This document shows positions 7,723 to 16,644 of a stretch of DNA of 64,000 bases, in pieces. Location of the stretch: positions 23,116-87,115 of the IMG/VR virus record IMGVR_UViG_3300035424_000154; one strand, given 5' to 3'. Made by a program: the position numbers and the translations under genes. This stretch comes from a virus (lineage: Duplodnaviria > Caudoviricetes). Under the pieces are notes generated by a model, which saw nothing but the letters and a program-made list of their open reading frames with translations, did not search any database and was not told where the DNA came from. Within the stretch, counting starts at the first letter, position 1, and every line of letters begins with the position of its first letter.

Positions 7723-7776
7723 GGGACGCTAACAGCCATTTTACAATATCAATTTTTCTTTGACACAATGCGTCCT
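7723..7776 (+). ncRNA. Stand-alone stem-loop RNA A with ACAGC(C)A module
   Basis: GGGACGC(7723-29)/GCGTCCT(7770-76) terminal helix, TA-ACAGCCA after 5' strand, AAT before 3' strand; matches copy C. Confidence 0.65.
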
Positions 7777-7787
7777 ATGAAGCCCAT

Positions 7788-7878
7788 GGAGGGGTAAGCC
7801 TAATTGGTAAGGCCCCGGTTTGCTAAACCGGCAGTAACCCGAAAGGGCGTATGGGTTCGAGTCCCATCCCCTTCGCCA
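7788..7878 (+). tRNA. tRNA-Ser(GCT), canonical
   Basis: Acceptor GGAGGGG/CCCCTTC, CCGGT-TT GCT AA-ACCGG anticodon arm, long variable arm, GGTTCGAGTCC T-loop, G73 plus CCA. Confidence 0.95.
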
Positions 7879-7930
7879 GGACAGTGCATCCACACAGTCC
7901 ATAACAATGTGGAGAACTTCTGGCACCTCC

Positions 7931-7948
7931 TCTCTCTCTCTCTCTCTC
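7931..7948. repeat. (TC)9 microsatellite
   Basis: tctctctctctctctctc directly visible, upstream of the paired GAAAGA hairpins. Confidence 0.9.
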
Positions 7949-7996
7949 TTTGACGGCGGGAAAGACCGCTGACAGCCTGGAAAGACAGGCGCATAT

Positions 7997-8110
7997 GGGA
8001 AGCGTCTGGTAGGCAGCATTACAGTGTAATAGACGGCGGACACTTACAGCAATTTTACATAAAAAGACTTGAAATCTTTTGCTTGCGGTTCGACTCCGCA
8101 GCTCCCCACA
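7997..8110 (+). ncRNA. tRNA-like RNA B with inserted ACAGCAA module; retains TGA (Ser) anticodon hairpin
   Basis: Acceptor GGGAAGC/GCTCCCC, T-arm TGCGG-TTCGACT-CCGCA, AAAGA-CT TGA AA-TCTTT hairpin; module GACAC-TT-ACAGCAA at 8046-52 lies 5' of the hairpin. Confidence 0.75.
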
Positions 8111-8148: not shown

Positions 8149-8178
8149 GTGAACAGAGTACGCGACCAGACCATTTGA
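8149..8178 (+). CDS. Putative 9-aa micropeptide MNRVRDQTI
   Basis: AAGGAGG at 8134-40, 8 nt before GTG. Confidence 0.35.
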   Translation: MNRVRDQTI

Positions 8179-8288: not shown

Positions 8289-8318
8289 ATGAATAAAGCA
8301 CGAGACAAGCCCTGGTAG
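8289..8318 (+). CDS. Putative 9-aa micropeptide MNKARDKPW
   Basis: AAGGAGG at 8276-82, 6 nt before ATG; resembles 8149 peptide. Confidence 0.35.
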   Translation: MNKARDKPW

Positions 8319-8365: not shown

Positions 8366-8415
8366 TGGACGCTAACAGCAAATCATTCATAAATTTGAAA
8401 AACAAAATGCGTCCA
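8366..8415 (+). ncRNA. Stand-alone stem-loop RNA C with ACAGCAA module
   Basis: TGGACGC/GCGTCCA terminal helix; TA-ACAGCAA at 8375-81; AAT before 3' strand. Confidence 0.7.
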
Positions 8416-8519: not shown

Positions 8520-8636
8520 GCGGGGATAGCTCAGTGGATAGAGCGGCGGTATAAGAAATGTGGAACGGGTATTTCACTAACAGCAAAATTCTTGGGGAAC
8601 CGTAAGTCGTAGGTTCGATTCCTACTCCCTGCACCA
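8520..8636 (+). ncRNA. tRNA-like RNA E (Pro-GGG-like) with 48-nt anticodon loop carrying the module
   Basis: GCGGGGA/TCCCTGC acceptor, TAGCTCAG..AGAGC D-arm, GCGGT/ACCGT anticodon stem, GTTCGATTC T-loop, ACCA end; loop ends TT GGG GA. Confidence 0.8.
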
Positions 8637-8720
8637 GCCGTTTGGGAACGGTGCATACAATCAAATCTCCTTTGCATGACGGTGGGAACGACCACTACTG
8701 CCGTGTAAGCGCGGCAATAT

Positions 8721-8840
8721 GCGGGCGTAGCTCAAGTGGTAGAGCAACCGACAATACAAAGTGTGTCATGGTATGACACCAACAGCAATTTCTTTGGAAA
8801 AATCAGTTTGTTGGAGGTTCGAGTCCTCCCGCCCGCATCA
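8721..8840 (+). ncRNA. tRNA-like RNA F (Phe-GAA-like) with 51-nt anticodon loop carrying the module
   Basis: GCGGGCG/CGCCCGC acceptor, canonical D and T arms, ACCGA/TCAGT stem, GTGTCAT/ATGACAC hairpin then ACAGCAA (8782-88); ends ATCA. Confidence 0.8.
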
Positions 8841-8843
8841 TAT

Positions 8844-8918
8844 GCCACTGTAGCTCAGTTGGTAGAGCGCTGCAAGACAATGTTCAGGCCGTCATTGGTT
8901 CGAGTCCAATCAGTGGCA
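8844..8918 (+). ncRNA. tRNA-like RNA G with degenerate anticodon arm, no module
   Basis: GCCACTG/CAGTGGC acceptor, canonical D and T arms, anticodon stem mismatched and loop non-canonical, no encoded CCA. Confidence 0.7.
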
Positions 8919-9099
8919 AGTTAATTTTTCACGAAGATGCAATCGCCAGCGTTGTGTCGGGAGTAAGTGGCTGGAAGTCCTCGAAGTACAAGGGGCCGTC
9001 TAAGGGTGTTCAGCAAAGGACGTAAAATAAGTGTAGTAACCGTGCAAATCGGAACGTCTGGGAAGTGTGCTACTCCCACCTGTGAGAGCCAGGATTATA

Positions 9100-9212
9100 T
9101 GTGTGGTGGCGGAATATGTAGACGCAAGTGGTTCAGGCGTGAGAACCGCCCGGAGTGTGCGCACACAAACGGCAGAAGACGCTTTGCGAGGTGAAAATCC
9201 TCGCCCACACAT
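9100..9212 (+). ncRNA. Leu-type tRNA-like RNA with expanded anticodon/variable region and atypical T-loop
   Basis: TGTGTGG/CCACACA acceptor, GCGGAATATGTAGACGC D-arm, GCGAGG-TGAAAAT-CCTCGC T-arm. Confidence 0.65.
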
Positions 9213-9219
9213 ATGATAA

Positions 9220-9337
9220 GCCAGGGTAGCTCAGTCGGTAGAGCACGTATCAATGCGTATCCAAGGAAACGCTTACAGCAATTTTTAAAAAGGACTTTTT
9301 AATCCCGTGGTCGTGGGTTCGAGTCCCACCCTTGGCA
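9220..9337 (+). ncRNA. tRNA-like RNA H (Lys-TTT-like) with 44-nt module inside the anticodon stem
   Basis: GCCAGGG/CCTTGGC acceptor; CG[9248-9291]GGA pairs with TCCCG; loop CTTTTTAA; ACAGCAA at 9275-81. Confidence 0.8.
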
Positions 9338-9456
9338 CAAAACGCTTTGTTTCTGGTTTCTTGGGCGTATAACCAACTAAACCAGCGGGGGCCAAATTTT
9401 CGGTGCAGACAACGATAAGTGGGAACCGATGACCGCTCGGAAAGACGAGCAATTAT

Positions 9457-9561
9457 GCCGGGATAGCTCAGCGGTAGAGCAGTATCGGACGGTACCGCCG
9501 ACAGAATGTACATTCTGGACATTTAATCTACAGGTGGCAGGTTCGACTCCTGCTCCCGGCG
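9457..9561 (+). ncRNA. tRNA-like RNA I with 33-nt two-hairpin insert inside the anticodon stem
   Basis: GCCGGGA/TCCCGGC acceptor; GTA[9485-9517]GA pairs with TCTAC; loop CA TTT AA; insert has degenerate ACAGAAT. Confidence 0.75.
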
Positions 9562-9566
9562 TTCAT

Positions 9567-9688
9567 GCGGCAGTGGTGAAGTGGTAACACAGCGGTCGTC
9601 GAAATGCGAAGTGCAAAATTTCGCTAACAGCAATTTTCGGACAAAGCCAAACCGCCATGCGCAGGTTCGATTCCTGCCTGCCGCTCCA
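9567..9688 (+). ncRNA. tRNA-like RNA J (Gly-GCC-like) with 54-nt anticodon loop carrying the module
   Basis: GCGGCAG/CTGCCGC acceptor, GCGGT/ACCGC stem, loop ends GCC AA, U73 plus CCA (Gly identity); ACAGCAA at 9627-33. Confidence 0.8.
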
Positions 9689-9690
9689 TT

Positions 9691-9730
9691 CTCTGAACAC
9701 AAACAGCAACAACGACAAACGTGTTCCGGG
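9691..9730 (+). ncRNA. Stem-loop K with ACAGCAA module in the leader of the DUF2828 gene
   Basis: GAACAC/GTGTTC helix, AA-ACAGCAA at 9703-09; about 13 nt before the AGGAGG RBS. Confidence 0.6.
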
Positions 9731-9757: not shown

Positions 9758-11317
9758 ATGAGCAACTTTATGGATGGACTCAAGAGCACTCTCAACGACG
9801 AGCGTTCTGTCACTGAGAACGGCGCGGTCGGGTTCCGCACTACGGGCCGGTCGCTGCTGGATCTGAACTTTGCTGTGGCCTCTCTGCGGAGCGCCAGTGA
9901 GAAGGATATCCAGAATCGCTTCTCCAAGGCATTCTTCGAGGATAAGCTGACGGCAATGAAATGGCTCTTTTATGCGCGTGATGTGCGCGGTGGCCTGGGT
10001 GAGCGGCGCTTGTTCCGCGCCTGCATGGTGCCGATGGCGAAGGAGTTCCCCGAGTACGTCCGGCCCATCGTCAAGCTGATCCCTGAGTATGGACGCTGGG
10101 ACGACCTGTGGTGCCTGCTGGACACGCCGGTGGCCGATGAGGTCATGCACAACGTATCTTTGCAGCTGACTGAGGACAACCACTTCTATGAGCAGAACCA
10201 GCCCATTTCTCTGCTGGCGAAGTGGATGCCGAGATGCAAGTGCCGGAACAAGGACAGGCGGCGTTATGCCACGATGTTGCGGGGATACCTTAACCTGACC
10301 GAGCGTGACTACCAGCACACGCTGTCTGCTCTGTGCCGCCACCTGAAGGTGGTTGAGATGGATATGTCGGCTCAGAACTGGGATGGCATTGACTATCAGC
10401 GTGTCCCCTCCCGTGCCAACCTGCAGTATAACAGTGCGTTCCTGCGGCACGACGAGGATCGGCGGCGGGCGTTCTTGGCGGCGGTTGAGAAGGGCGAAGC
10501 GAAGATCAACGCTTCTGTTCTGTTCCCTCATGATATCGTGCATCAGTATCGTCGTGCTGGCAGCGGCATTGACAGCAATCTGGAAATGCTGTGGAAAAAC
10601 CTGCCTGACATGGTGCAGGGTTGCGGCAATACCATCGTGGTGGCCGATGGTTCCGGCAGTATGAGTGTCAACGTGGGTGGTACCAACGTGTCTGCTCTGG
10701 AGGTCGCAAACGCACTGGCGATCTATTTTGCTGAGCGTTCCTCCGGCCAGTTCAAGGATCAGTATATCACCTTCTCTGAGCGTCCCCAGCTGGTGGATTT
10801 GAGCCACGGGAAGAATCTCCGCGAAAAGCTGAGGATTGCGGCAACTCATAACGAAGTTGCCAACACCAACGTCGAGGCGGTGTTTGACCTGATTCTTACC
10901 ACGGCAATTAACAAGCACATGGAGCAGAGCGAGTTGCCGGCCAATATCCTTATCATTTCTGATATGGAGTTTGACAGCTGCGCCACTACCAACGCTCAGC
11001 CTCGTAGGGGCTACAGCTGGGGGTACAGTAGCTGTGTGGCCCCTACTTCTACCCTGTTTGAGGTGATCGCCAAGCGATATGCTGACGCCGGATACCAGCT
11101 TCCTCGTCTGGTGTTCTGGAATGTCAATTCCCGTACTGGCACCATCCCTGTTAAGGAGAACGATTTGGGGGTCGCCCTGGTTAGTGGCTTTTCTCCCAAT
11201 GTCGCCAAGATGGTTATGAGCGGCAAGCTCGATCCCTATGATTGCCTGTTGGAGGCGATCAATGCTGAGCGGTATCAGCCGGTGGACGATGTTCTGCGGC
11301 CTGTAATTTTCACTTAG
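9758..11317 (+). CDS. DUF2828-family protein (TROVE/Ro60-like helical domain plus C-terminal VWA)
   Basis: TENGA, LFYARDVRGGLGERRLF, YGRWDDLW, LAKWMPR, RVPSRA, LFPHDIV, MIDAS DGSGS, ISDMEFD, FWNV, LVSGFSP; AGGAGG RBS. Confidence 0.85.
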   Translation: MSNFMDGLKSTLNDERSVTENGAVGFRTTGRSLLDLNFAVASLRSASEKDIQNRFSKAFFEDKLTAMKWLFYARDVRGGLGERRLFRACMVPMAKEFPEYVRPIVKLIPEYGRWDDLWCLLDTPVADEVMHNVSLQLTEDNHFYEQNQPISLLAKWMPRCKCRNKDRRRYATMLRGYLNLTERDYQHTLSALCRHLKVVEMDMSAQNWDGIDYQRVPSRANLQYNSAFLRHDEDRRRAFLAAVEKGEAKINASVLFPHDIVHQYRRAGSGIDSNLEMLWKNLPDMVQGCGNTIVVADGSGSMSVNVGGTNVSALEVANALAIYFAERSSGQFKDQYITFSERPQLVDLSHGKNLREKLRIAATHNEVANTNVEAVFDLILTTAINKHMEQSELPANILIISDMEFDSCATTNAQPRRGYSWGYSSCVAPTSTLFEVIAKRYADAGYQLPRLVFWNVNSRTGTIPVKENDLGVALVSGFSPNVAKMVMSGKLDPYDCLLEAINAERYQPVDDVLRPVIFT

Positions 11318-11337: not shown

Positions 11338-11392
11338 AAGGAGGTTTGAATAGAGAACATACGCATTGTACCGTTCCTGTTCAAACCTCCTT
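11338..11392. repeat. 13-bp perfect inverted repeat between DUF2828 and iscS-like genes
   Basis: AAGGAGGTTTGAA(11338-50)...TTCAAACCTCCTT(11380-92). Confidence 0.7.
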
Positions 11393-11412
11393 TGCTGTTA
11401 GGAGTGTGTAAA

Positions 11413-12561
11413 ATGATCTATCTGGACAACGCGGCCACAACTCCTACTTTCTCAGAGGTTTTGGAAGCCATGTTGCCATGGTTCCAGCCTGAGCGAGTGG
11501 GCAACCCTGGAAGTATTCATACCCAAGGCGTCAAAGCCCGTAACGCTGTTGAGAAAGCCCGTAAACAAGTGGCGCGGATGATTGGCGCTGAACCTTCTGA
11601 GATTTTTTTCACTTCTGGTGGAACAGAGTCCAACAACACATGGTTGCAATGTGCTAAAGACAGAGTTGTGCAGAGGCCAATTATCTTAACCACTAAGATT
11701 GAGCATCATTCTGTAATCGAGCCGATTGAACACAGTTCCTACCACCGTGCAGAGTATGTCAAGGTTTATCGTGACGGTTCAGTTAATCTTGACGACTTGG
11801 AACGGTTGCTCCAGCTTCATCGTGAAGAAGTTGGCGGCGTCTCCATTATGTGGGTGAATAATGAGCTGGGAACGGTCAACCCCATTAAAGAAATCGGAAC
11901 GCTTTGCAAAAAGTACAATGTGCTGTTCCATACAGATGCGGTACAGGCAGCAGGCCATGTTGCTATGGACGTTCATGATTGCAATGTGGACTTTCTTTCG
12001 CTCTCTGGTCACAAATTCGGCGCTCCTTTGGGTACTGGCGTGCTGTACATCAGTAACTCTATCCGAAAACATCCGTTGATCGTTGGTGGTGGACAAGAAC
12101 GAGAGATGCGAGGCGGCACAGAGAACGTACCCGGAATTGTGGGCATCGGTAGAGCCGCCGAGATCGTAACTGGCCGACTGTTGGTCAATAGGCAGTTGTG
12201 GAGCTACCATCGCTCTGTGTTTTTGACTGAGCTTGGTAAAAATATGTATGGGGAGTTCAAAATCAACGGCGACACAGAGAATTACCCTTCAAATATTATC
12301 AGCATGACGATTCCCGGCGTGAACAGTGAATCACTTTTGTTGCTGTTGGATCAGCAGGATGTTTATATCTCTGCTGGCTCTGCGTGTAGTGCGGCCAGTT
12401 CTGAACCTTCACACGTTTTGCAAGGGGTTGGGATTTCCAATGAAGATGCGGCTTGCACTGTGCGAATCTCTATGGGGTTTGCGCCCAGTTATGTCGATAT
12501 GGTGCAGGCAGCTGAAGTCATTGCAAACACAGTGCATAGGCTGAAATCTATGTATCCGTGA
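11413..12561 (+). CDS. iscS: Cysteine desulfurase (IscS/NifS group I)
   Basis: IYLDNAATT, FTSGGTES, HTDAVQAAG, SGHKF (PLP lysine), SAGSAC (catalytic Cys). Confidence 0.93.
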   Translation: MIYLDNAATTPTFSEVLEAMLPWFQPERVGNPGSIHTQGVKARNAVEKARKQVARMIGAEPSEIFFTSGGTESNNTWLQCAKDRVVQRPIILTTKIEHHSVIEPIEHSSYHRAEYVKVYRDGSVNLDDLERLLQLHREEVGGVSIMWVNNELGTVNPIKEIGTLCKKYNVLFHTDAVQAAGHVAMDVHDCNVDFLSLSGHKFGAPLGTGVLYISNSIRKHPLIVGGGQEREMRGGTENVPGIVGIGRAAEIVTGRLLVNRQLWSYHRSVFLTELGKNMYGEFKINGDTENYPSNIISMTIPGVNSESLLLLLDQQDVYISAGSACSAASSEPSHVLQGVGISNEDAACTVRISMGFAPSYVDMVQAAEVIANTVHRLKSMYP

Positions 12562-12564
12562 TTT

Positions 12565-12580
12565 GAGGCAAAATACATAG
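12565..12580 (+). promoter_or_regulatory. Element-wide intergenic motif, copy 4
   Basis: GAGGCAAAATACATAG (one base shorter). Confidence 0.65.
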
Positions 12581-12600
12581 TTCAAAGGAGGCGGGTTACT

Positions 12601-13017
12601 TTGAGTTACGATATCTCATTGGTTGATCCCGTTACAAAAGAAACTCTCTTACTGGACGCTCCCCATCAGATTAAGGGCGGCACCTATGCCATAGGCGGTA
12701 CTCGTGAGGCGGAGTTAAACATCACCTATAACTACGCCAGATGGTATCGCATGGAAGGTGTTTTCCCGGAGCGAGAGTGGAGCGGTATTCGTTCTATCTA
12801 CGGCATGGCAGGAGCTGAGAGTATCCCGGTGCTCAAAAACGCAATCGCTGTATTGAAAAACTCCGATCAGGAGCTTTCTGATGAGGAGCAGGCCGAATAT
12901 GAGAAGCAGGGTGTGACCGGTTACTGGATGCCAACAAAGGTAAATGCAATGAAACCCCTGCATAGTCTGTTGGCATTTGCGCAAATGCGCCCAGATGGTG
13001 TGTGGAATGGAGACTAA
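12601..13017 (+). CDS. Hypothetical phage protein
   Basis: AAAGGAGG RBS; LNITYNY motif common in small phage proteins. Confidence 0.65.
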   Translation: MSYDISLVDPVTKETLLLDAPHQIKGGTYAIGGTREAELNITYNYARWYRMEGVFPEREWSGIRSIYGMAGAESIPVLKNAIAVLKNSDQELSDEEQAEYEKQGVTGYWMPTKVNAMKPLHSLLAFAQMRPDGVWNGD

Positions 13018-13345
13018 CTTAAATGTTTCTGCCATCCTTGACTTCATTAGCAATTTTAAGGATGCTCAGGACACATTTCTTTACGGTTGCTGTTACTGGT
13101 TCGCCTTTATCCTCAATGAGCGCTTTGGCGGGACGACGATGTATCTTCCAGTGGAAAATCACTTTGTTCAAGCAATAGGCAAGCGTTTATATGATGTATC
13201 TGGTGACGTAACGGCAGAATACCTAACCGCCAGGATTATTCCGTGGGCGGCGATGGAGCAATATGATTCAACCATGTACCGGAGGCTAATCCGGGACTGC
13301 ATCAATAAGGAGAGATTCGACGATGACAGTATTAACTCAGGATGA
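13007..13345 (+). CDS. Hypothetical protein
   Basis: FLYGCCYWFAFIL; overlaps upstream stop. Confidence 0.55.
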   Translation: METNLNVSAILDFISNFKDAQDTFLYGCCYWFAFILNERFGGTTMYLPVENHFVQAIGKRLYDVSGDVTAEYLTARIIPWAAMEQYDSTMYRRLIRDCINKERFDDDSINSG

Positions 13346-14190
13346 GCAGAAGCGCCAGAAGATTATGGCGCGTATGCAGGAACACTTGGTTCCCGTCCTG
13401 GAACATTGTAGGGGGGGGGTGGGTCGGCCTCTTTCTGCAAGGTTCCCAAAACTATAACCTTGATTATGAGGGAAGTGACATTGATACCAAAGCTATCTTG
13501 CTTCCCAGTTTTTCCGACTTTGTTTGGAACAGAAAACCAACCAGTACGACCCACATCATGGAAAATGATGAGCACGTAGATTTCAAGGATATTCGGCTCA
13601 TGTTTGACTGCTTCAAAAAGCAGAATGTCAACTTCGTCGAAATCCTGTTTACTCCCTACTGCATTATCAATCCTATGTATGAGGATCTGCTTCAGCCGGT
13701 GCTAGATGCCCGAGAGGAGATTGCCCGCTACAACAATTATGCTGGTATGAGGTGCATTATGGGTATGGCTTACGAGAAGCAGAAAGCAATGGAGCACCCC
13801 TACCCTGCCACAATCGACAAAATCAAAGTGTATGGATATGATCCGAAGCAACTCCATCATGCTTTGAGGCTGCGGGAGTTTATGACCAGATACATGGCCG
13901 GCGAAAATTATGCTGATTGCTTGGTTAGCAAACAGCGTGATTATTTGAAAGATGTAAAGAAGGGTTGTTACTCCCTGGACGAAGCTCGTGCTTTGATGAA
14001 TGTTACGATCAAATCCATGGCTGAGGATAAGCAGCAGTATATGGAGGCTGTTCCGGCCATTATCAATGAGCACGCCGACGAGGTGCTGAAAACGGCCACG
14101 GTTGAAATTCTCAAAAGGAGCTTCCTGAACGAGATTCAAAGAGGTGATCAAGTTGCAAACGTTTTACATGATGGTTGGCCTGCCCGGTAG
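13323..14190 (+). CDS. Pol-beta superfamily nucleotidyltransferase, frameshifted at G9 (13411-19)
   Basis: GSQNYNLDYEGSDIDTK (GS..DxD); RBS plus ATG 13323 joins the main frame only if the tract is G8. Confidence 0.75.
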
Positions 14191-15070
14191 TGGTAAATCA
14201 CTCACTGCCAGGACTTTCCCCAATACCATCATCCATTCCAGCGATGCAATCCGTGCGGAAATCTTGGGTGACGAGAACCGGCAAGACCAACAAGAGCTGG
14301 TGTTCCAGACGCTTCACGAGCGAGTGCTGAATGATCTGGCAAGCGGCAAGAATGTCGTGTATGACGCCACCAATATCAACTACAAGCGTCGTATGGAGTT
14401 CTTGCAGCAGGTAAACGCGATGAAGCTCCCCAGCCTTAGAACGGTCTGTGTCTTTTTGACCACTCCGTATGAGGAGTGCATAGAGCGCAATGCCAACCGA
14501 GAGCGCTCTGTTCCAAGGTCTGTAATTCGTAGAATGTATGAGAAAATCGACATTCCTATGAAAGCAGAAGGATGGGACGAAATTTGGGTTTTTGGCGACA
14601 TAAAGGATTACTATGGCCGGTTAGAAACCTTTATGAGCCATCTGTCCAAGCTGGAGCATGATAATCCCCACCATACATACACAGTCGGTCAGCATTGTAT
14701 GGCGGCATGGCAATACCTGATCAGCCACTATAAGGACTACGATGCTTGTCTGCTCCGTGCCACTCTCTTGCACGATATCGGCAAGGAAAAAACCAAAGTG
14801 TTCTATGACACTAAAGGCAACCCCACGGATATTGCCCACTACTATCATCATGAGCGTGTGGGCGCTTATGACAGTTTCTGCTACACCAGCGATCTCAGCA
14901 ATGACCAACGCCTGATGGTTGCGCTTTTGATTCGCTGGCATATGTGGCCGTATGTAGTGGAAAAGTCAGATAACCCGAACAAAACCGCTCGTAAAGTGCG
15001 GCGGTTGCTCGGTGAAGATATCTGGAAGCAGGTTGCGGTCTTGAATGACTGTGATCGACACGCACACTAA
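14144..15070 (+). CDS. Polynucleotide-kinase-like P-loop (AAA_33) plus HD domain
   Basis: GLPGSGKS, SSDAIR, YDATN; HHTYTVGQH, LLHDIGK, HHERVGA. Confidence 0.85.
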   Translation: MIKLQTFYMMVGLPGSGKSLTARTFPNTIIHSSDAIRAEILGDENRQDQQELVFQTLHERVLNDLASGKNVVYDATNINYKRRMEFLQQVNAMKLPSLRTVCVFLTTPYEECIERNANRERSVPRSVIRRMYEKIDIPMKAEGWDEIWVFGDIKDYYGRLETFMSHLSKLEHDNPHHTYTVGQHCMAAWQYLISHYKDYDACLLRATLLHDIGKEKTKVFYDTKGNPTDIAHYYHHERVGAYDSFCYTSDLSNDQRLMVALLIRWHMWPYVVEKSDNPNKTARKVRRLLGEDIWKQVAVLNDCDRHAH

Positions 15071-15091
15071 ATGAAATAGGAGGAAACAATC

Positions 15092-15602
15092 ATGAACCCG
15101 AATCAGTATCAGATCTCTATGCGTCCCGCTTTTGAGCCGGAGGCCATCCACGTTGAGCCATTCAATCCGATCAGTGTTCTGCTTGAGGCGTTGGGTGGTA
15201 CCCCCCCCCATCATTGCGCCTAATGGTGAGCGTGACCGTTTCGCTGACGGTTGGAACGCTGCCATGCAGCACATGAGGGACAACCCGCCTGCACCCGCTC
15301 CCCTTCCGCTGCCTACGAATGTGATCTTCAACAACCCGGCCACCATTGTGTACTGGAACGACGGTACCAAGACTGTGGTGAAGTGTCAGCCCGGAGATGT
15401 GTTCAGCGCTGAGGCTGGCCTGACCACTGCTATGCTCAAGAAGTACATGGGTAACGACAACACCTTCAACCGGGTTATCAACGAGTGGTTGAAGCACACT
15501 GGCGAGTATAAGCCGTCTGTTGCTCCTGCTTTGCCGGCAGCTGAGACGCCCGCCGCCCTGCCTGCTCCTACGGATCAGGGAGCGCCTGAAATGGTGGAGT
15601 AA
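15092..15602 (+). CDS. Hypothetical phage protein, frameshifted at C9 (15201-09)
   Basis: AGGAGG plus ATG 15092 joins the VIFNNPATIVYWNDGTKTVVKC frame only with C8. Confidence 0.65.
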
Positions 15603-15666
15603 GCTATGGAGGGCGTTATCATTCCAATCGTGGTGTTGGGGCTGTTGTTCATACTGACAAGATCGA

Positions 15667-16644
15667 ATGATGACGACAATAACGGGAATTGGGGAGGTGG
15701 GTGTTTTGCATAGTCGAGAGCAATTAGAAGAAATGCAGCGCCTACCTCTTTCCCGTAAAATCCAGATCACCACGGCCAGAATTATTGAGTGGTACCAACA
15801 CTACGATGGCAAGGTTTATGTGGCTTTTTCTGGCGGCAAGGACTCAACAGTTCTCCTTGATATTGTACGGCGCATCTATCCTGATGTGCCAGCAGTATTT
15901 TCGGACACTGGATTGGAGTTTCCAGAAGTTAGAGCATTTGCCAGGAGTTGCGAAAATGTCACCATTATCAAACCTGAGATGAATTTCCGGCAGGTCATTG
16001 AGAAGTACGGATACCCTGTTGTTTCTAAACGTGTGGCTGACGCCGTGAAATACGGTCATAAGCCAGGGTCTTTTCGCTGGAAGGAGCTACATGGCGAAAT
16101 TATGCGGAGCAACGGGACTCCTTCAGAGTTCAACTGTGAGAAATGGTGCTATCTGCTCAACGCACCCTTTAAGGTGTCTGCTCGGTGTTGTGCCGTCATG
16201 AAAAAGCGGCCTATGAAGAAATATTCCAAAGAAACCGGGCGAGTGCCTATCATTGCGACAATGGCAGACGAAAGCCGATCCCGTCGTGCTACTTGGTTGC
16301 GTTTGGGGTGTAACGCTTTTGCTGCCAAAAAGCCCAGCTCTCAACCTATGTCATTCTGGACTGAGGACGATGTACTTGAATATCTCTATACCTACAAAAT
16401 TCCCTATGCCTCGGTTTATGGCGAGATCGTCAAGACTGACGGGGGGGGGTGGACAACAACCGGAGAAAAACGTACTGGTTGTGTCTTTTGTGCCTTTGGT
16501 GCTCATTTGGAAAAGGCTCCAAACCGTTTCCAGCGACTAAAGGTTACTCACCCGAAACTCTGGAATTATTGTATGAAGCCATGGGAAGAACATGGCTTGG
16601 GTATGCGGCGAGTGCTTGAGTACATTGGAGTCCCAATAGAATAA
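15667..16644 (+). CDS. PAPS-reductase-family (PP-loop) protein
   Basis: VAFSGGKDSTVL, FSDTGLEFPE, CC pair, RTGCVFC. Confidence 0.85.
   Translation: MMTTITGIGEVGVLHSREQLEEMQRLPLSRKIQITTARIIEWYQHYDGKVYVAFSGGKDSTVLLDIVRRIYPDVPAVFSDTGLEFPEVRAFARSCENVTIIKPEMNFRQVIEKYGYPVVSKRVADAVKYGHKPGSFRWKELHGEIMRSNGTPSEFNCEKWCYLLNAPFKVSARCCAVMKKRPMKKYSKETGRVPIIATMADESRSRRATWLRLGCNAFAAKKPSSQPMSFWTEDDVLEYLYTYKIPYASVYGEIVKTDGGGWTTTGEKRTGCVFCAFGAHLEKAPNRFQRLKVTHPKLWNYCMKPWEEHGLGMRRVLEYIGVPIE

What the first reader, a model, noticed from the sequence alone, without database searches (positions are those of the whole stretch)
8520..9688. Expanded-loop tRNA mimics retain residual amino-acid identities (Pro, Phe, Gly; B keeps Ser)
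E, F and J keep a 5-bp anticodon stem but have 48-, 51- and 54-nt loops whose 3' ends still read TT GGG GA (Pro, G37), GAA AA (Phe-like stem context) and GCC AA with U73-CCA (Gly). B (7997-8110) keeps a full TGA anticodon hairpin. The module was therefore added independently to several isoacceptor scaffolds, always 5' of the anticodon. Inference: a panel covering different tRNA species, perhaps to bait different anticodon nucleases or synthetases.
Basis: partly seen in the sequence, partly recalled or inferred. Interest (0 to 1): 0.72.

Follow-up and report, generated by a model that had tools for sequence, protein, structure and literature searches.

The report
Handle-tagged tRNA mimics keeping Gly/Pro identity
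Three tRNA-shaped RNAs of a mouse-gut phage carry a conserved 40-base "handle" inside the anticodon loop; two of them (one glycine-like, one proline-like) still keep the letters that normally mark a tRNA's amino acid, and all belong to a widespread set of partner RNAs of a Ro60-like phage protein for which I found no published description.

Summary
The sequence description is largely right. E, F and J are tRNA-shaped (Rfam tRNA 48-54 bits) with 48-, 51- and 54-nt anticodon loops, and B has an intact CUUGAAA anticodon hairpin.

The insert is a covarying 7-bp hairpin followed by invariant ACAGCAA. It is linked across hundreds of phage and gut-bacterial loci to the gene just downstream. That gene encodes a DUF2828/DUF7788 protein whose model matches Ro60.

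The identity claims hold in part:
- **J (Gly):** supported. Relatives read AA-[G/U]CC-AA, mostly with U73-CCA, C2:G71 and G3:C70.
- **E (Pro):** supported for the loop. Relatives read NGG, mostly with G37, and A73. The body is not Pro-like (G1:C72).
- **F (Phe):** not supported. GAA is out of register, and relatives read AGG, GGC or AUG.
- **B (Ser):** not supported. It has no long variable arm, and relatives read GGA, GCA, UCA or GGU.

"Always 5' of the anticodon" fails in one relative, where the handle sits in the D-loop. "Added independently to isoacceptor scaffolds" is not supported by body similarity.

Best reading: these are Y-RNA-like tRNA mimics bound through the handle, which display an anticodon and acceptor identity. 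I found no evidence of splicing.

This scan has already noted the same handle/DUF2828 system on other DNA (211 notes, at least 161 genomes).

The parts
8520..8636 (+). Unit E: tRNA-shaped RNA. Anticodon stem 8546-8550/8599-8603 and a 48-nt loop. Handle hairpin followed by ACAGCAA at 8580-8586. Residual loop UUGGGGA at 8592-8598 (GGG, G37). A73-CCA; G3:U70.
   Evidence: Rfam tRNA 54.4 bits. Coordinates checked. Orthologues read NGG.
8721..8840 (+). Unit F: tRNA-shaped RNA. Stem 8747-8751/8803-8807 is 4 of 5 paired, with a 51-nt loop. Hairpin GUGUCAU/AUGACAC followed by ACAGCAA at 8782-8788. The loop ends GGAAAAA. The 3' end is A-UCA, with no CCA.
   Evidence: Rfam tRNA 48.7 bits.. Relatives read AGG, GGC or AUG.
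9567..9688 (+). Unit J: tRNA-shaped RNA. Stem 9592-9596/9651-9655 and a 54-nt loop. Hairpin GCGAAGU/AUUUCGC followed by ACAGCAA at 9627-9633. Residual AAGCCAA at 9644-9650. C2:G71, G3:C70, U73-CCA.
   Evidence: Rfam tRNA 49.7 bits..
7997..8110 (+). Unit B: tRNA-like RNA with a reduced D-arm. The handle (ACAGCAA at 8046-8052) lies between the D-arm and an intact anticodon hairpin at 8063-8079 (CUUGAAA). The variable region is short.
9220..9340 (+). Unit H: the handle (ACAGCAA at 9275-9281) splits the 5' strand of the anticodon stem. It is followed by GGA-CUUUUUAA-UCC, an 8-nt loop. Relatives have CUGUUAA (Asn).
   Evidence: Rfam 47.9 bits..
9457..9561 (+). Unit I: tRNA-shaped RNA with a shorter insert and a degenerate motif (ACAGAAU) in the 5' strand of the anticodon stem.
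   Evidence: ARAGORN with the intron option. Sequence. Fold.
8843..8919 (+). Unit G: 77-nt tRNA-like RNA without a handle. It has an 8-nt anticodon loop, AGACAAUG.
   Evidence: ARAGORN calls it tRNA-??? (acaa). Rfam 50.1 bits.
7723..7776 (+). Free-standing handle in the permuted topology: a closing stem GGGACGC/GCGUCC(U) around UAACAGCCA plus an AU-rich loop.
8366..8415 (+). Second free-standing handle in the permuted topology.
   Evidence: MFE z-score -3.6.
9694..9727 (+). Handle copy in the leader of the Ro60-like gene: stem GAACAC/GUGUUC around AAACAGCAA, with the motif 55 nt upstream of the start codon.
   Evidence: An ACAGCAA-like motif lay within 160 nt upstream of 46 of 52 homologous genes, mostly 52-110 nt from the start.
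9758..11317 (+). Gene for a 519-aa DUF2828/DUF7788 protein with a Ro60-like fold (HEAT-repeat ring plus vWA domain). It is the presumed binding partner of the handle.
   Evidence: Pfam. AlphaFold model, pLDDT 79. The 12 best Foldseek PDB hits are all Ro60/TROVE structures.
7788..7878 (+). Ordinary type II tRNA-Ser(GCU) at the head of the array. It serves as an internal comparison.

Best explanation
E, F and J, together with B, H and I, are tRNA-derived noncoding RNAs of a widespread phage family. Each carries a built-in 'handle': a 7-bp hairpin, 0-3 bases, then single-stranded ACAGCAA and a U-rich tail.

The handle is most likely the binding site of the Ro60-like DUF2828 protein encoded 70 nt downstream of J. 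The RNAs would then act like Y RNAs: the protein holds the handle, and the tRNA-shaped body is displayed to tRNA-binding proteins.

In E and J the handle fills the 5' part of the anticodon loop. The 48-54-nt loop, and in J also A32-A33, argue against decoding on the ribosome. The last seven loop bases and the acceptor end still keep, under selection, elements that bacterial GlyRS and ProRS are known to read:
- J: N34-C35-C36-A37, U73-CCA, C2:G71 and G3:C70.
- E: N34-G35-G36-G37-A38 and A73-CCA.

I infer that these two mimics stay recognisable, and possibly chargeable, by anticodon-reading tRNA partners, most simply the cognate class IIa synthetases. F has lost any readable identity. B shows a canonical anticodon loop whose triplet changes between phages.

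Shown here: the anatomy, the conservation, the genomic linkage and the Ro60-like fold. Inferred: handle-protein binding, recognition by synthetases, and the downstream role.
For: **The handle is a real RNA element**
- 25 length-matched copies are 96% paired, with 49 double-sided changes against 13 in shuffles. Covariation is 0.94 against about 0.1 when the pairing is slid.
- There are 89 distinct stems among 126 units.

**Linkage to the protein**
- A DNA-pattern scan that used no protein information found module-bearing tRNA genes. Of the 74 loci with a parsed unit, 49 hold a DUF2828 homologue, nearly always on the same strand and mostly 70-1500 nt downstream.
- Starting instead from 80 protein-defined loci, hairpin+ACAGCAA occurs 136 times in the 3 kb upstream on the same strand. 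It occurs 13 times downstream, and 7 and 2 times on the opposite strand.
- 46 of 52 homologous genes have an ACAGCAA-like motif in their own leader.

**Fold**
- The 12 best PDB matches of the model are all Ro60/TROVE structures (E 1e-7 to 7e-5, TM about 0.5).

**Identity**
- On the J-type scaffold, 12 of 17 distinct units read GCC or UCC. Of those, 9 have U73 and 8 have CCA. The five GGC variants have A or C73.
- The combination C2:G71 + G3:C70 + U73 occurs in 6 of 15 ordinary phage tRNA-Gly but only 2 of 257 other tRNAs.
- All five tRNA-Gly of a likely host-clade genome end U73-CCA. Three of its four tRNA-Pro have the loop UUNGGGA (the GGG isoacceptor has CUGGGGG), and all four have A73.
- The E family reads AGG, GGG or UGG, mostly with G37-A38, and always A73.
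- Variation lies at triplet position 1, the wobble position. That pattern fits an anticodon and not a codon.
- Whole bodies are not isotype-like. The retained elements are therefore not simply left over from a recent copy of a host tRNA.
Against: - No binding, charging or expression end-points were measured.
- The counts are not corrected for relatedness. Many loci are close relatives, so there are perhaps 4-6 independent lineages for the J-scaffold pattern.
- E lacks C1:G72, which all four host-clade tRNA-Pro have. E also carries G3:U70, an AlaRS determinant.
- A73 occurs in 3 of the 12 NCC units.
- The GGC variants lack G3:U70, so their triplet does not fit a chargeable identity.
- Handle-bearing units encode CCA less often than ordinary tRNAs of the same loci. 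Class I: 2 of 70 against 87 of 268. Class II: 14 of 55 against 56 of 94.
- Single-sequence MFE folds of E and J do not always keep the homology-based structure. In E they pair part of UUGGGG with the loop's 5' end.
Confidence: 0.6

Rival explanations
1. Decoy panel. The displayed anticodon loops and triplets bait host anticodon nucleases. These are tRNA-cleaving defence or toxin enzymes. The mimics would soak up cleavage or report it to the Ro60-like protein and the neighbouring end-healing enzymes.
For: - Anticodons switch between orthologous scaffolds while the canonical 7-nt loop is kept. The B family reads UGA, GGA, GCA, UCA and GGU. The H family reads GUU, UUU, UCU and UGU. That pattern fits an arms race.
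- A PNK-like kinase-HD fusion lies downstream.
- Published Ro60/Y-RNA systems sit in RNA-repair contexts (PMC7824862, PMC7790460).
Against: - No nuclease, cleavage product or ligase was seen. RtcB, Rnl-type ligases and EndA are absent from the held 87 kb, which is 63% complete.
- The E and J families are conserved rather than diversifying.
- Loops that lack U33 may not be substrates of nucleases that read a normal anticodon loop.
Confidence: 0.2
2. Decaying relics. The handle is what matters. The triplets and discriminators are leftovers of the tRNA genes that the handle was built on, and nothing reads them today.
For: - F, G, H and I of this phage look degenerate: an out-of-register triplet, 8-nt loops, A33, and UCA or CAA where CCA would be.
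- Handle units are depleted in encoded CCA.
- Free-standing handles need no tRNA body at all.
Against: - Relics should decay evenly. Yet positions 35-38 of J- and E-type units stay fixed across phages whose partner proteins are only 55-80% identical, while adjacent loop bases and hairpin sequences differ.
- Variation is confined to the wobble base.
- The bodies are less isotype-like than the identity elements.
Confidence: 0.12
3. Intron-bearing tRNA genes. The handle is a new kind of short tRNA intron that is removed to give working tRNAs.
For: - A strict parse found 70 of 143 distinct units (class I) in which one precise excision in the 5' strand restores a perfect 5-bp stem and a 7-nt loop with U33 and R37. 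The insert mostly follows position 28 or 29.
- A looser parse of the first 126 units restored 82.
- E would become a tRNA with the loop UUGGGGA.
Against: - J- and F-type units cannot be restored to a canonical loop, because no U33 is available.
- The same handle occurs free-standing, in an mRNA leader and in a D-loop.
- I saw no bulge-helix-bulge motif in the one example I checked by eye.
- No splicing endonuclease or RNA ligase was found in the held record.
- Class I units almost never encode CCA, although neighbouring tRNAs do.
Confidence: 0.05
4. Codon mimics. The triplets are displayed as codons, like a T-box specifier, and pair with the anticodons of host tRNAs.
For: GGC, found in 9 units, is the Gly codon that pairs with anticodon GCC. 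The triplets are flanked by unpaired A's.
Against: - Read as codons, the variable first base changes the amino acid: GCC/UCC give Ala/Ser, and AGG/GGG/UGG give Arg/Gly/Trp.
- The triplet lies exactly two bases from the 3' strand of the anticodon stem.
- On the J-type scaffold the triplet goes with the discriminator base.
Confidence: 0.03

Closest known systems
Bacterial and phage Ro60 (Rsr) with YrlA-type Y RNAs (Rfam RF02553; Chen et al. 2014, PMC4201824)
   Same: - A ring-shaped Ro60-fold protein is encoded next to, and on the same strand as, small RNAs that mimic tRNA, with real D- and T-arms.
- Several RNAs go with each protein gene.
- The context is RNA repair.
   Different: - The protein matches Pfam DUF2828/DUF7788, and no TROVE match was returned.
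- The RNAs are not permuted. Their ends lie at the acceptor stem, and the protein-binding element sits on or in the anticodon arm.
- The conserved element is hairpin+ACAGCAA, not GNCGAAN0-1G.
- The YrlA model scores only 27.5 bits against a 69-bit threshold, and that match spans two adjacent units.
- Anticodon triplets and discriminators are kept.
Thermus phage phiLo Ro60 with Yrl1/Yrl2 (PMC12135203; PDB 9KOP, 9L5Y)
   Same: A phage-encoded Ro60-fold protein with partner RNAs encoded just upstream. These structures are the best structural matches of the model.
   Different: The Yrl RNAs are stem-bulge-stem Y RNAs with a CGAA motif. They are not tRNA-shaped and carry no ACAGCAA handle.
Aminoacylatable viral tRNA-like structures and tmRNA (from general knowledge, not tested here)
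   Same: These are non-tRNA RNAs that keep an acceptor end and identity elements, so that a synthetase charges them while they cannot decode normally.
   Different: They are 3' ends of plant-virus genomes, or the tRNA-like domain of tmRNA. None has a handle or a Ro60-like partner. Charging of E and J has not been shown.
Phage-encoded tRNAs with altered anticodon loops that escape host anticodon nucleases
   Same: Phage tRNA arrays whose anticodon arms evolve under pressure from tRNA-targeting defences.
   Different: Those are working tRNAs with 7-nt loops. Here the loops are 48-54 nt, or the stem is interrupted by a 40-55-nt handle.

Membership tests
Elongator tRNA (Rfam RF00005) | Cloverleaf scoring above the gathering threshold | tested here: met
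   E 54.4, J 49.7, F 48.7 and H 47.9 bits against 29. The insert is treated as a 46-58-nt insertion in the anticodon arm.
Elongator tRNA (Rfam RF00005) | A 7-nt anticodon loop with U33 and a purine at 37 | tested here: not met
   As encoded, the loops are 48, 51 and 54 nt. The last seven bases are UUGGGGA (E), GGAAAAA (F) and AAGCCAA (J). Only B has a canonical loop.
tRNA-Gly identity set (bacterial GlyRS rules, established knowledge) | C35, C36, U73, C2:G71 and G3:C70 | tested here: met
   J has all five, plus an encoded CCA. On the J-type scaffold, 12 of 17 units read NCC, 9 of them with U73. The acceptor combination occurs in 6 of 15 tRNA-Gly against 2 of 257 other phage tRNAs.
tRNA-Gly identity set | Aminoacylation by GlyRS | not testable with these tools
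   This needs an in vitro charging assay.
tRNA-Pro identity set (bacterial ProRS rules, established knowledge) | G35, G36 and A73 (with G37) | tested here: met
   E has UU-GGG-G-A and A73-CCA. Relatives read AGG, GGG or UGG with A73.
tRNA-Pro identity set | C1:G72 | tested here: not met
   E has G1:C72. All four tRNA-Pro of a likely host-clade genome have C1:G72.
tRNA-Phe | GAA at positions 34-36, in register with the stem | tested here: not met
   Register 34-36 of F reads AAA. Relatives read AGG, GGC or AUG.
tRNA-Ser | A long variable arm (type II), which SerRS reads | tested here: not met
   B has a 4-nt variable region, UGCU. Family anticodons are UGA, GGA, GCA, UCA and GGU.
Ro60/TROVE protein family | HEAT-repeat ring plus vWA fold | tested here: met
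   The 12 best Foldseek PDB hits are all Ro60/TROVE structures over the full length. The model has pLDDT 79 and pTM 0.70.
Ro60/TROVE protein family | Sequence-level match to the TROVE domain or to solved Ro60 structures | tested here: not met
   Pfam returned only DUF7788 and DUF2828. Sequence and profile searches of the PDB found no Ro60.
YrlA Y RNA (RF02553) | Covariance-model score above the gathering threshold | tested here: not met
   27.5 bits against 69. The match runs from the T-arm of F to the D-arm of G.
YrlA Y RNA (RF02553) | GNCGAAN0-1G Rsr-binding motif | not tested
   I did not scan for it systematically. The invariant element here is ACAGCAA.
Spliced tRNA intron (archaeal type) | A splicing endonuclease and RNA ligase are available | tested here: inconclusive
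   EndA, RtcB and Rnl-type ligase were not found in the 87-kb record. That record is only 63% complete, and host enzymes were not examined.

The most novel reading that the evidence does not exclude
The Gly-like and Pro-like mimics are really charged by host GlyRS and ProRS while held by the Ro60-like protein. More broadly, phages would field a re-programmable panel of handle-tagged RNAs that display an anticodon and acceptor identity, and these would engage specific synthetases or anticodon nucleases. That would be a new class of ribonucleoprotein acting in the phage-host contest over tRNAs.
Probability: 0.2. Interest if true: 0.85.

Novelty: new variant of a known kind. Interest (0 to 1): 0.6.

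Why it matters
Ro60/Y-RNA particles are known from animals to bacteria, but what their tRNA-like parts are for is still unclear.

Here a very common relative, found in gut phages and in prophages of Clostridia, has partner RNAs that are whole tRNA shapes. Some of them keep exactly the bases that synthetases read.

That makes a concrete question testable. Are tRNA-mimicking partner RNAs recognised, charged or cleaved in an amino-acid-specific way? And is the Ro60-like protein a platform for that?

I found no RNA family or paper describing the handle or an RNA partner of DUF2828.

Tried and rejected
- **RNA libraries.** Contigs of four runs from four studies (X15, X16, X17, X20) cover much of the array in unspliced form. 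For example, one contig runs 7959-8787 and another 8707-9363. No joint matched an excision of the handle. The listed joints are cross-matches between conserved tRNA arms. Contigs cannot show absence, ends or strand, and DNA carry-over is possible, so I draw no conclusion on splicing or expression.
- **Isotype by nearest neighbour.** I classified bodies against 280 ordinary phage tRNAs and against 45 tRNAs of an Oscillospiraceae genome. The result was uninformative: the generic GCUCAGUUGGUAGAGC-type bodies match Thr, Ile or Gln.
- **ARAGORN with the intron option.** Its intron placements and anticodons are inconsistent (J called Arg-UCG, F called Phe-AAA), so I did not use them.
- **PDB sequence and profile searches for the protein.** Nothing was found. 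Only the fold search worked.
- **Phage GenBank DNA search with the array.** It found only short matches to ordinary tRNAs.
- **Literature.** No paper links DUF2828 to RNAs, and I found none describing the handle.
- **Single-sequence MFE folds.** They are only partly consistent with the homology-based structures, with weak z-scores for B, E and J.
- **RtcB, Rnl-type ligase and EndA.** Absent from the held record, which is incomplete.
- **Bulge-helix-bulge motif.** I looked by eye at one 28/29 insert and saw none. I did not test this systematically.
Full report
**Setting.** The window is part of an 87-kb linear virus record that CheckV rates 63% complete. Public runs that hold it are mouse-gut metagenomes. 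The closest bacterial copies of the key protein gene lie in Oscillospiraceae and other Clostridia genomes.

Between 7723 and 9727 on the + strand lies an array. It contains one ordinary type II tRNA-Ser(GCU) at 7788-7878, several tRNA-shaped units (B, E, F, G, H, I, J), free-standing hairpin elements, and a leader element. These are followed at 9758 by a 519-aa gene that matches Pfam DUF7788 and DUF2828.

**Checking the observation.**
- Rfam scores E, F, G, H and J as tRNA at 48-54 bits, with a 46-58-nt insertion in the anticodon arm.
- My coordinate check gives these anatomies:
  - E: stem GCGGU/ACCGU, loop 8551-8598 (48 nt) ending UUGGGGA, then A73-CCA.
  - F: stem ACCGA/UCAGU with a C-A mismatch, loop 8752-8802 (51 nt) ending GGAAAAA, then A-UCA.
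  - J: stem GCGGU/ACCGC, loop 9597-9650 (54 nt) ending AAGCCAA, then U73-CCA.
  - B: complete hairpin AAAGA-CUUGAAA-UCUUU at 8063-8079.
- The lengths and most readings are therefore right. F's stem is 4 of 5 paired, and its 'GAA AA' is out of register, since the triplet two bases from the stem is AAA.

**What the insert is.** Every insert contains ACAGCAA, usually preceded after 0-3 bases by a hairpin.
- On 25 length-matched copies from different phages the 7-bp stem is 96% paired. All seven pairs show double-sided changes: 49 cells against 13 in shuffles, with covariation 0.94 against about 0.1 when the pairing is slid. One caveat applies: I chose those rows because they had a hairpin.
After parsing and adding later loci, I had 143 distinct handle-bearing tRNA-shaped units from 114 loci.
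- Seventy units are 'class I'. The handle interrupts the 5' strand of the anticodon stem, after position 28 in 35 units and after 29 in 20. It is followed by an intact 7-nt loop with U33 and R37. The commonest anticodons are GUU 19, UAC 11, UGU 8 and GCU 6.
- Fifty-five units are 'class II', like E, F and J. The stem is intact and the handle lies inside the loop.

**Link to the downstream protein.** The pattern scan used no protein information.
- Of the 74 loci with a parsed unit, 49 hold a homologue of the window's DUF2828 protein in the stretch held. It is nearly always on the same strand and mostly 70-1500 nt downstream.
- In the reverse direction I started from 80 protein-defined loci, taken from more than 570 matches. 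Hairpin+ACAGCAA occurs 136 times in the 3 kb upstream on the same strand. It occurs 13 times downstream, and 7 and 2 times on the opposite strand.
- 46 of 52 homologous genes carry an ACAGCAA-like motif in their own leader. Some relatives (L003, L004) have only that copy.
- An AlphaFold model built on 21 homologues (pLDDT 79, pTM 0.70) has Ro60/TROVE structures as its 12 best PDB matches (E 1e-7 to 7e-5, TM about 0.5 over the full length). vWA domains follow.
- Sequence searches did not find Ro60, and Pfam returned no TROVE match.

I conclude that the handle is most likely the recognition element of a Ro60-like protein. The leader copy suggests autoregulation. Binding itself is an inference.

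**The identity claim for J.** Class II units on the J-type scaffold (D-arm GUGAAG.../GUCAAG..., stem GCNGC/GCNGC) end AA-GCC-AA or AA-UCC-AA in 12 of 17 distinct sequences.
- Those sequences come from phages whose partner proteins are about 55-80% identical to the window's.
- Nine of the 12 have U73, eight of them with an encoded CCA. All of them keep C2:G71 and G3:C70.
- Among ordinary tRNAs of the same loci, C2:G71 + G3:C70 + U73 occurs in 6 of 15 tRNA-Gly and 2 of 257 others.
- All five tRNA-Gly of an Oscillospiraceae genome end U73-CCA.
- The five J-scaffold units that read GGC have A73 or C73, never U. One J-type scaffold, L001 3533, reads UGG-G37 with A73. Triplet, base 37 and discriminator therefore change together, as they do in real identity sets.
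- These counts are not corrected for relatedness.

**The identity claim for E.** E-type units read AGG, GGG or UGG, mostly followed by G37-A38, and all have A73.
- This matches the loop UUNGGGA and A73 of three of the four host-clade tRNA-Pro. The GGG isoacceptor has CUGGGGG.
- E has G1:C72, where all four host tRNA-Pro have C1:G72. E alone among its relatives has G3:U70.
- The loop is therefore Pro-like, but the acceptor stem is not.

**The identity claims for F and B.**
- F-type relatives read AGG, GGC or AUG, with discriminators G, U or A. Nothing supports Phe.
- B-family units keep a canonical loop, but the anticodon differs between phages: UGA, GGA, GCA, UCA and GGU. The closest relative reads GCA. 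The variable region is 3-5 nt, so the SerRS determinant is missing.

**Across all class II units.** The triplets are GCC 10, AGG 9, GGC 9, UCC 7, GGG 4 and UGG 2, flanked AA...AA. Variation lies at the first base. That fits a wobble position, and does not fit a codon reading.

**Scaffolds and placement.**
- Whole-body comparison with 280 ordinary phage tRNAs and with 45 host-clade tRNAs does not assign E, F or J to Pro, Phe or Gly.
- This undercuts 'added independently to isoacceptor scaffolds'. It also argues that the retained identity bases are not simply what is left of a recent tRNA copy.
- Array order (Ser, B..., H..., J, protein gene) is shared with L001 and L002, so the units are old.
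- The handle is not always 5' of the anticodon. L001 3659-3776 carries it in the D-loop, and free-standing, permuted copies exist.

**Intron rival.**
- Precise excision restores a canonical arm in class I units and in E, but not in J- or F-type units, which have no U33.
- The handle also occurs outside tRNAs.
- I found no RtcB, Rnl-type ligase or EndA in the (incomplete) record.
- Class I units encode CCA in 2 of 70 cases, against 87 of 268 ordinary tRNAs in the same loci (Fisher p = 3e-8). Class II units do so in 14 of 55 against 56 of 94.
- RNA-library contigs show unspliced sequence only, which proves little.

**What is known.** Ro60/Rsr with tRNA-like YrlA RNAs (PMC4201824) and phage phiLo Ro60 with Yrl RNAs (PMC12135203) are the nearest systems. 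TROVE proteins in jumbo-phage RNA-repair contexts have been noted (PMC7824862).
- The present RNAs fail the YrlA model (27.5 against 69 bits).
- They have a different topology and a different conserved motif.
- Literature searches found nothing on an RNA partner of DUF2828.
- Earlier notes of this scan describe the same handle/DUF2828 pairing on other DNA: 211 notes in at least 161 genomes. I reached the pairing independently, before reading them.

**Verdict.** E and J are real, conserved tRNA mimics that keep a Pro-type anticodon loop and a full Gly-type identity set respectively. F and B do not keep an amino-acid identity. All are best read as Y-RNA-like partner RNAs of a Ro60-like phage protein. 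Who reads the displayed identity (a synthetase, a nuclease or something else) remains open.

Noticed in passing
window 8995-9218 (L001 3066-3290): This 224-nt stretch between units G and H is 93% identical to L001, although the neighbouring Ro60-like proteins are only 67% identical. It has no Rfam match, its MFE z-score is -1.06, and a 75-aa ORF (8967-9194) overlaps it. It may be another conserved RNA or a small gene.
   Followed up: partly
window 8149-8178 and 8289-8318: Two 9-codon ORFs (VNRVRDQTI and MNKARDKPW), each behind a strong GGAGG, lie between units B and C. Both are conserved in L001 (MNRARDQTV and MNKARDKP).
   Followed up: no
window 8520-8636: Unit E has a G3:U70 wobble pair plus A73, the classical AlaRS determinant. 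Its orthologues have G3:C70. Its acceptor stem and its Pro-like loop therefore point to different amino acids.
   Followed up: partly
L001 3659-3776: This tRNA-shaped unit carries the handle inside the D-loop. Its anticodon arm has a 5-nt loop, CAGGA.
   Followed up: partly
window 8843-8919: Unit G is tRNA-like without a handle. Its 8-nt loop AGACAAUG resembles the handle's ACAGCAAUG with three bases missing. ARAGORN reads a 4-base anticodon.
   Followed up: no
window 7922-7951: A (CT)n run of about 22 nt lies between tRNA-Ser and unit B. RNA-library contigs break there.
   Followed up: no
window 11392-16644: Downstream genes: a class V aminotransferase (cysteine desulfurase-like), a YunG-like protein, an AAA_33 kinase fused to an HD phosphohydrolase, and a PAPS-reductase/PP-loop protein. 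This is a set suggestive of RNA end-healing and thiolation.
   Followed up: partly
L006, L014, L035, L091 and other loci: Class I handle-bearing units are enriched for Asn(GUU) and Val(UAC) relative to ordinary tRNAs of the same loci, where Met, Leu and Ser dominate. Several read GCU or GGA yet have no long variable arm.
   Followed up: partly
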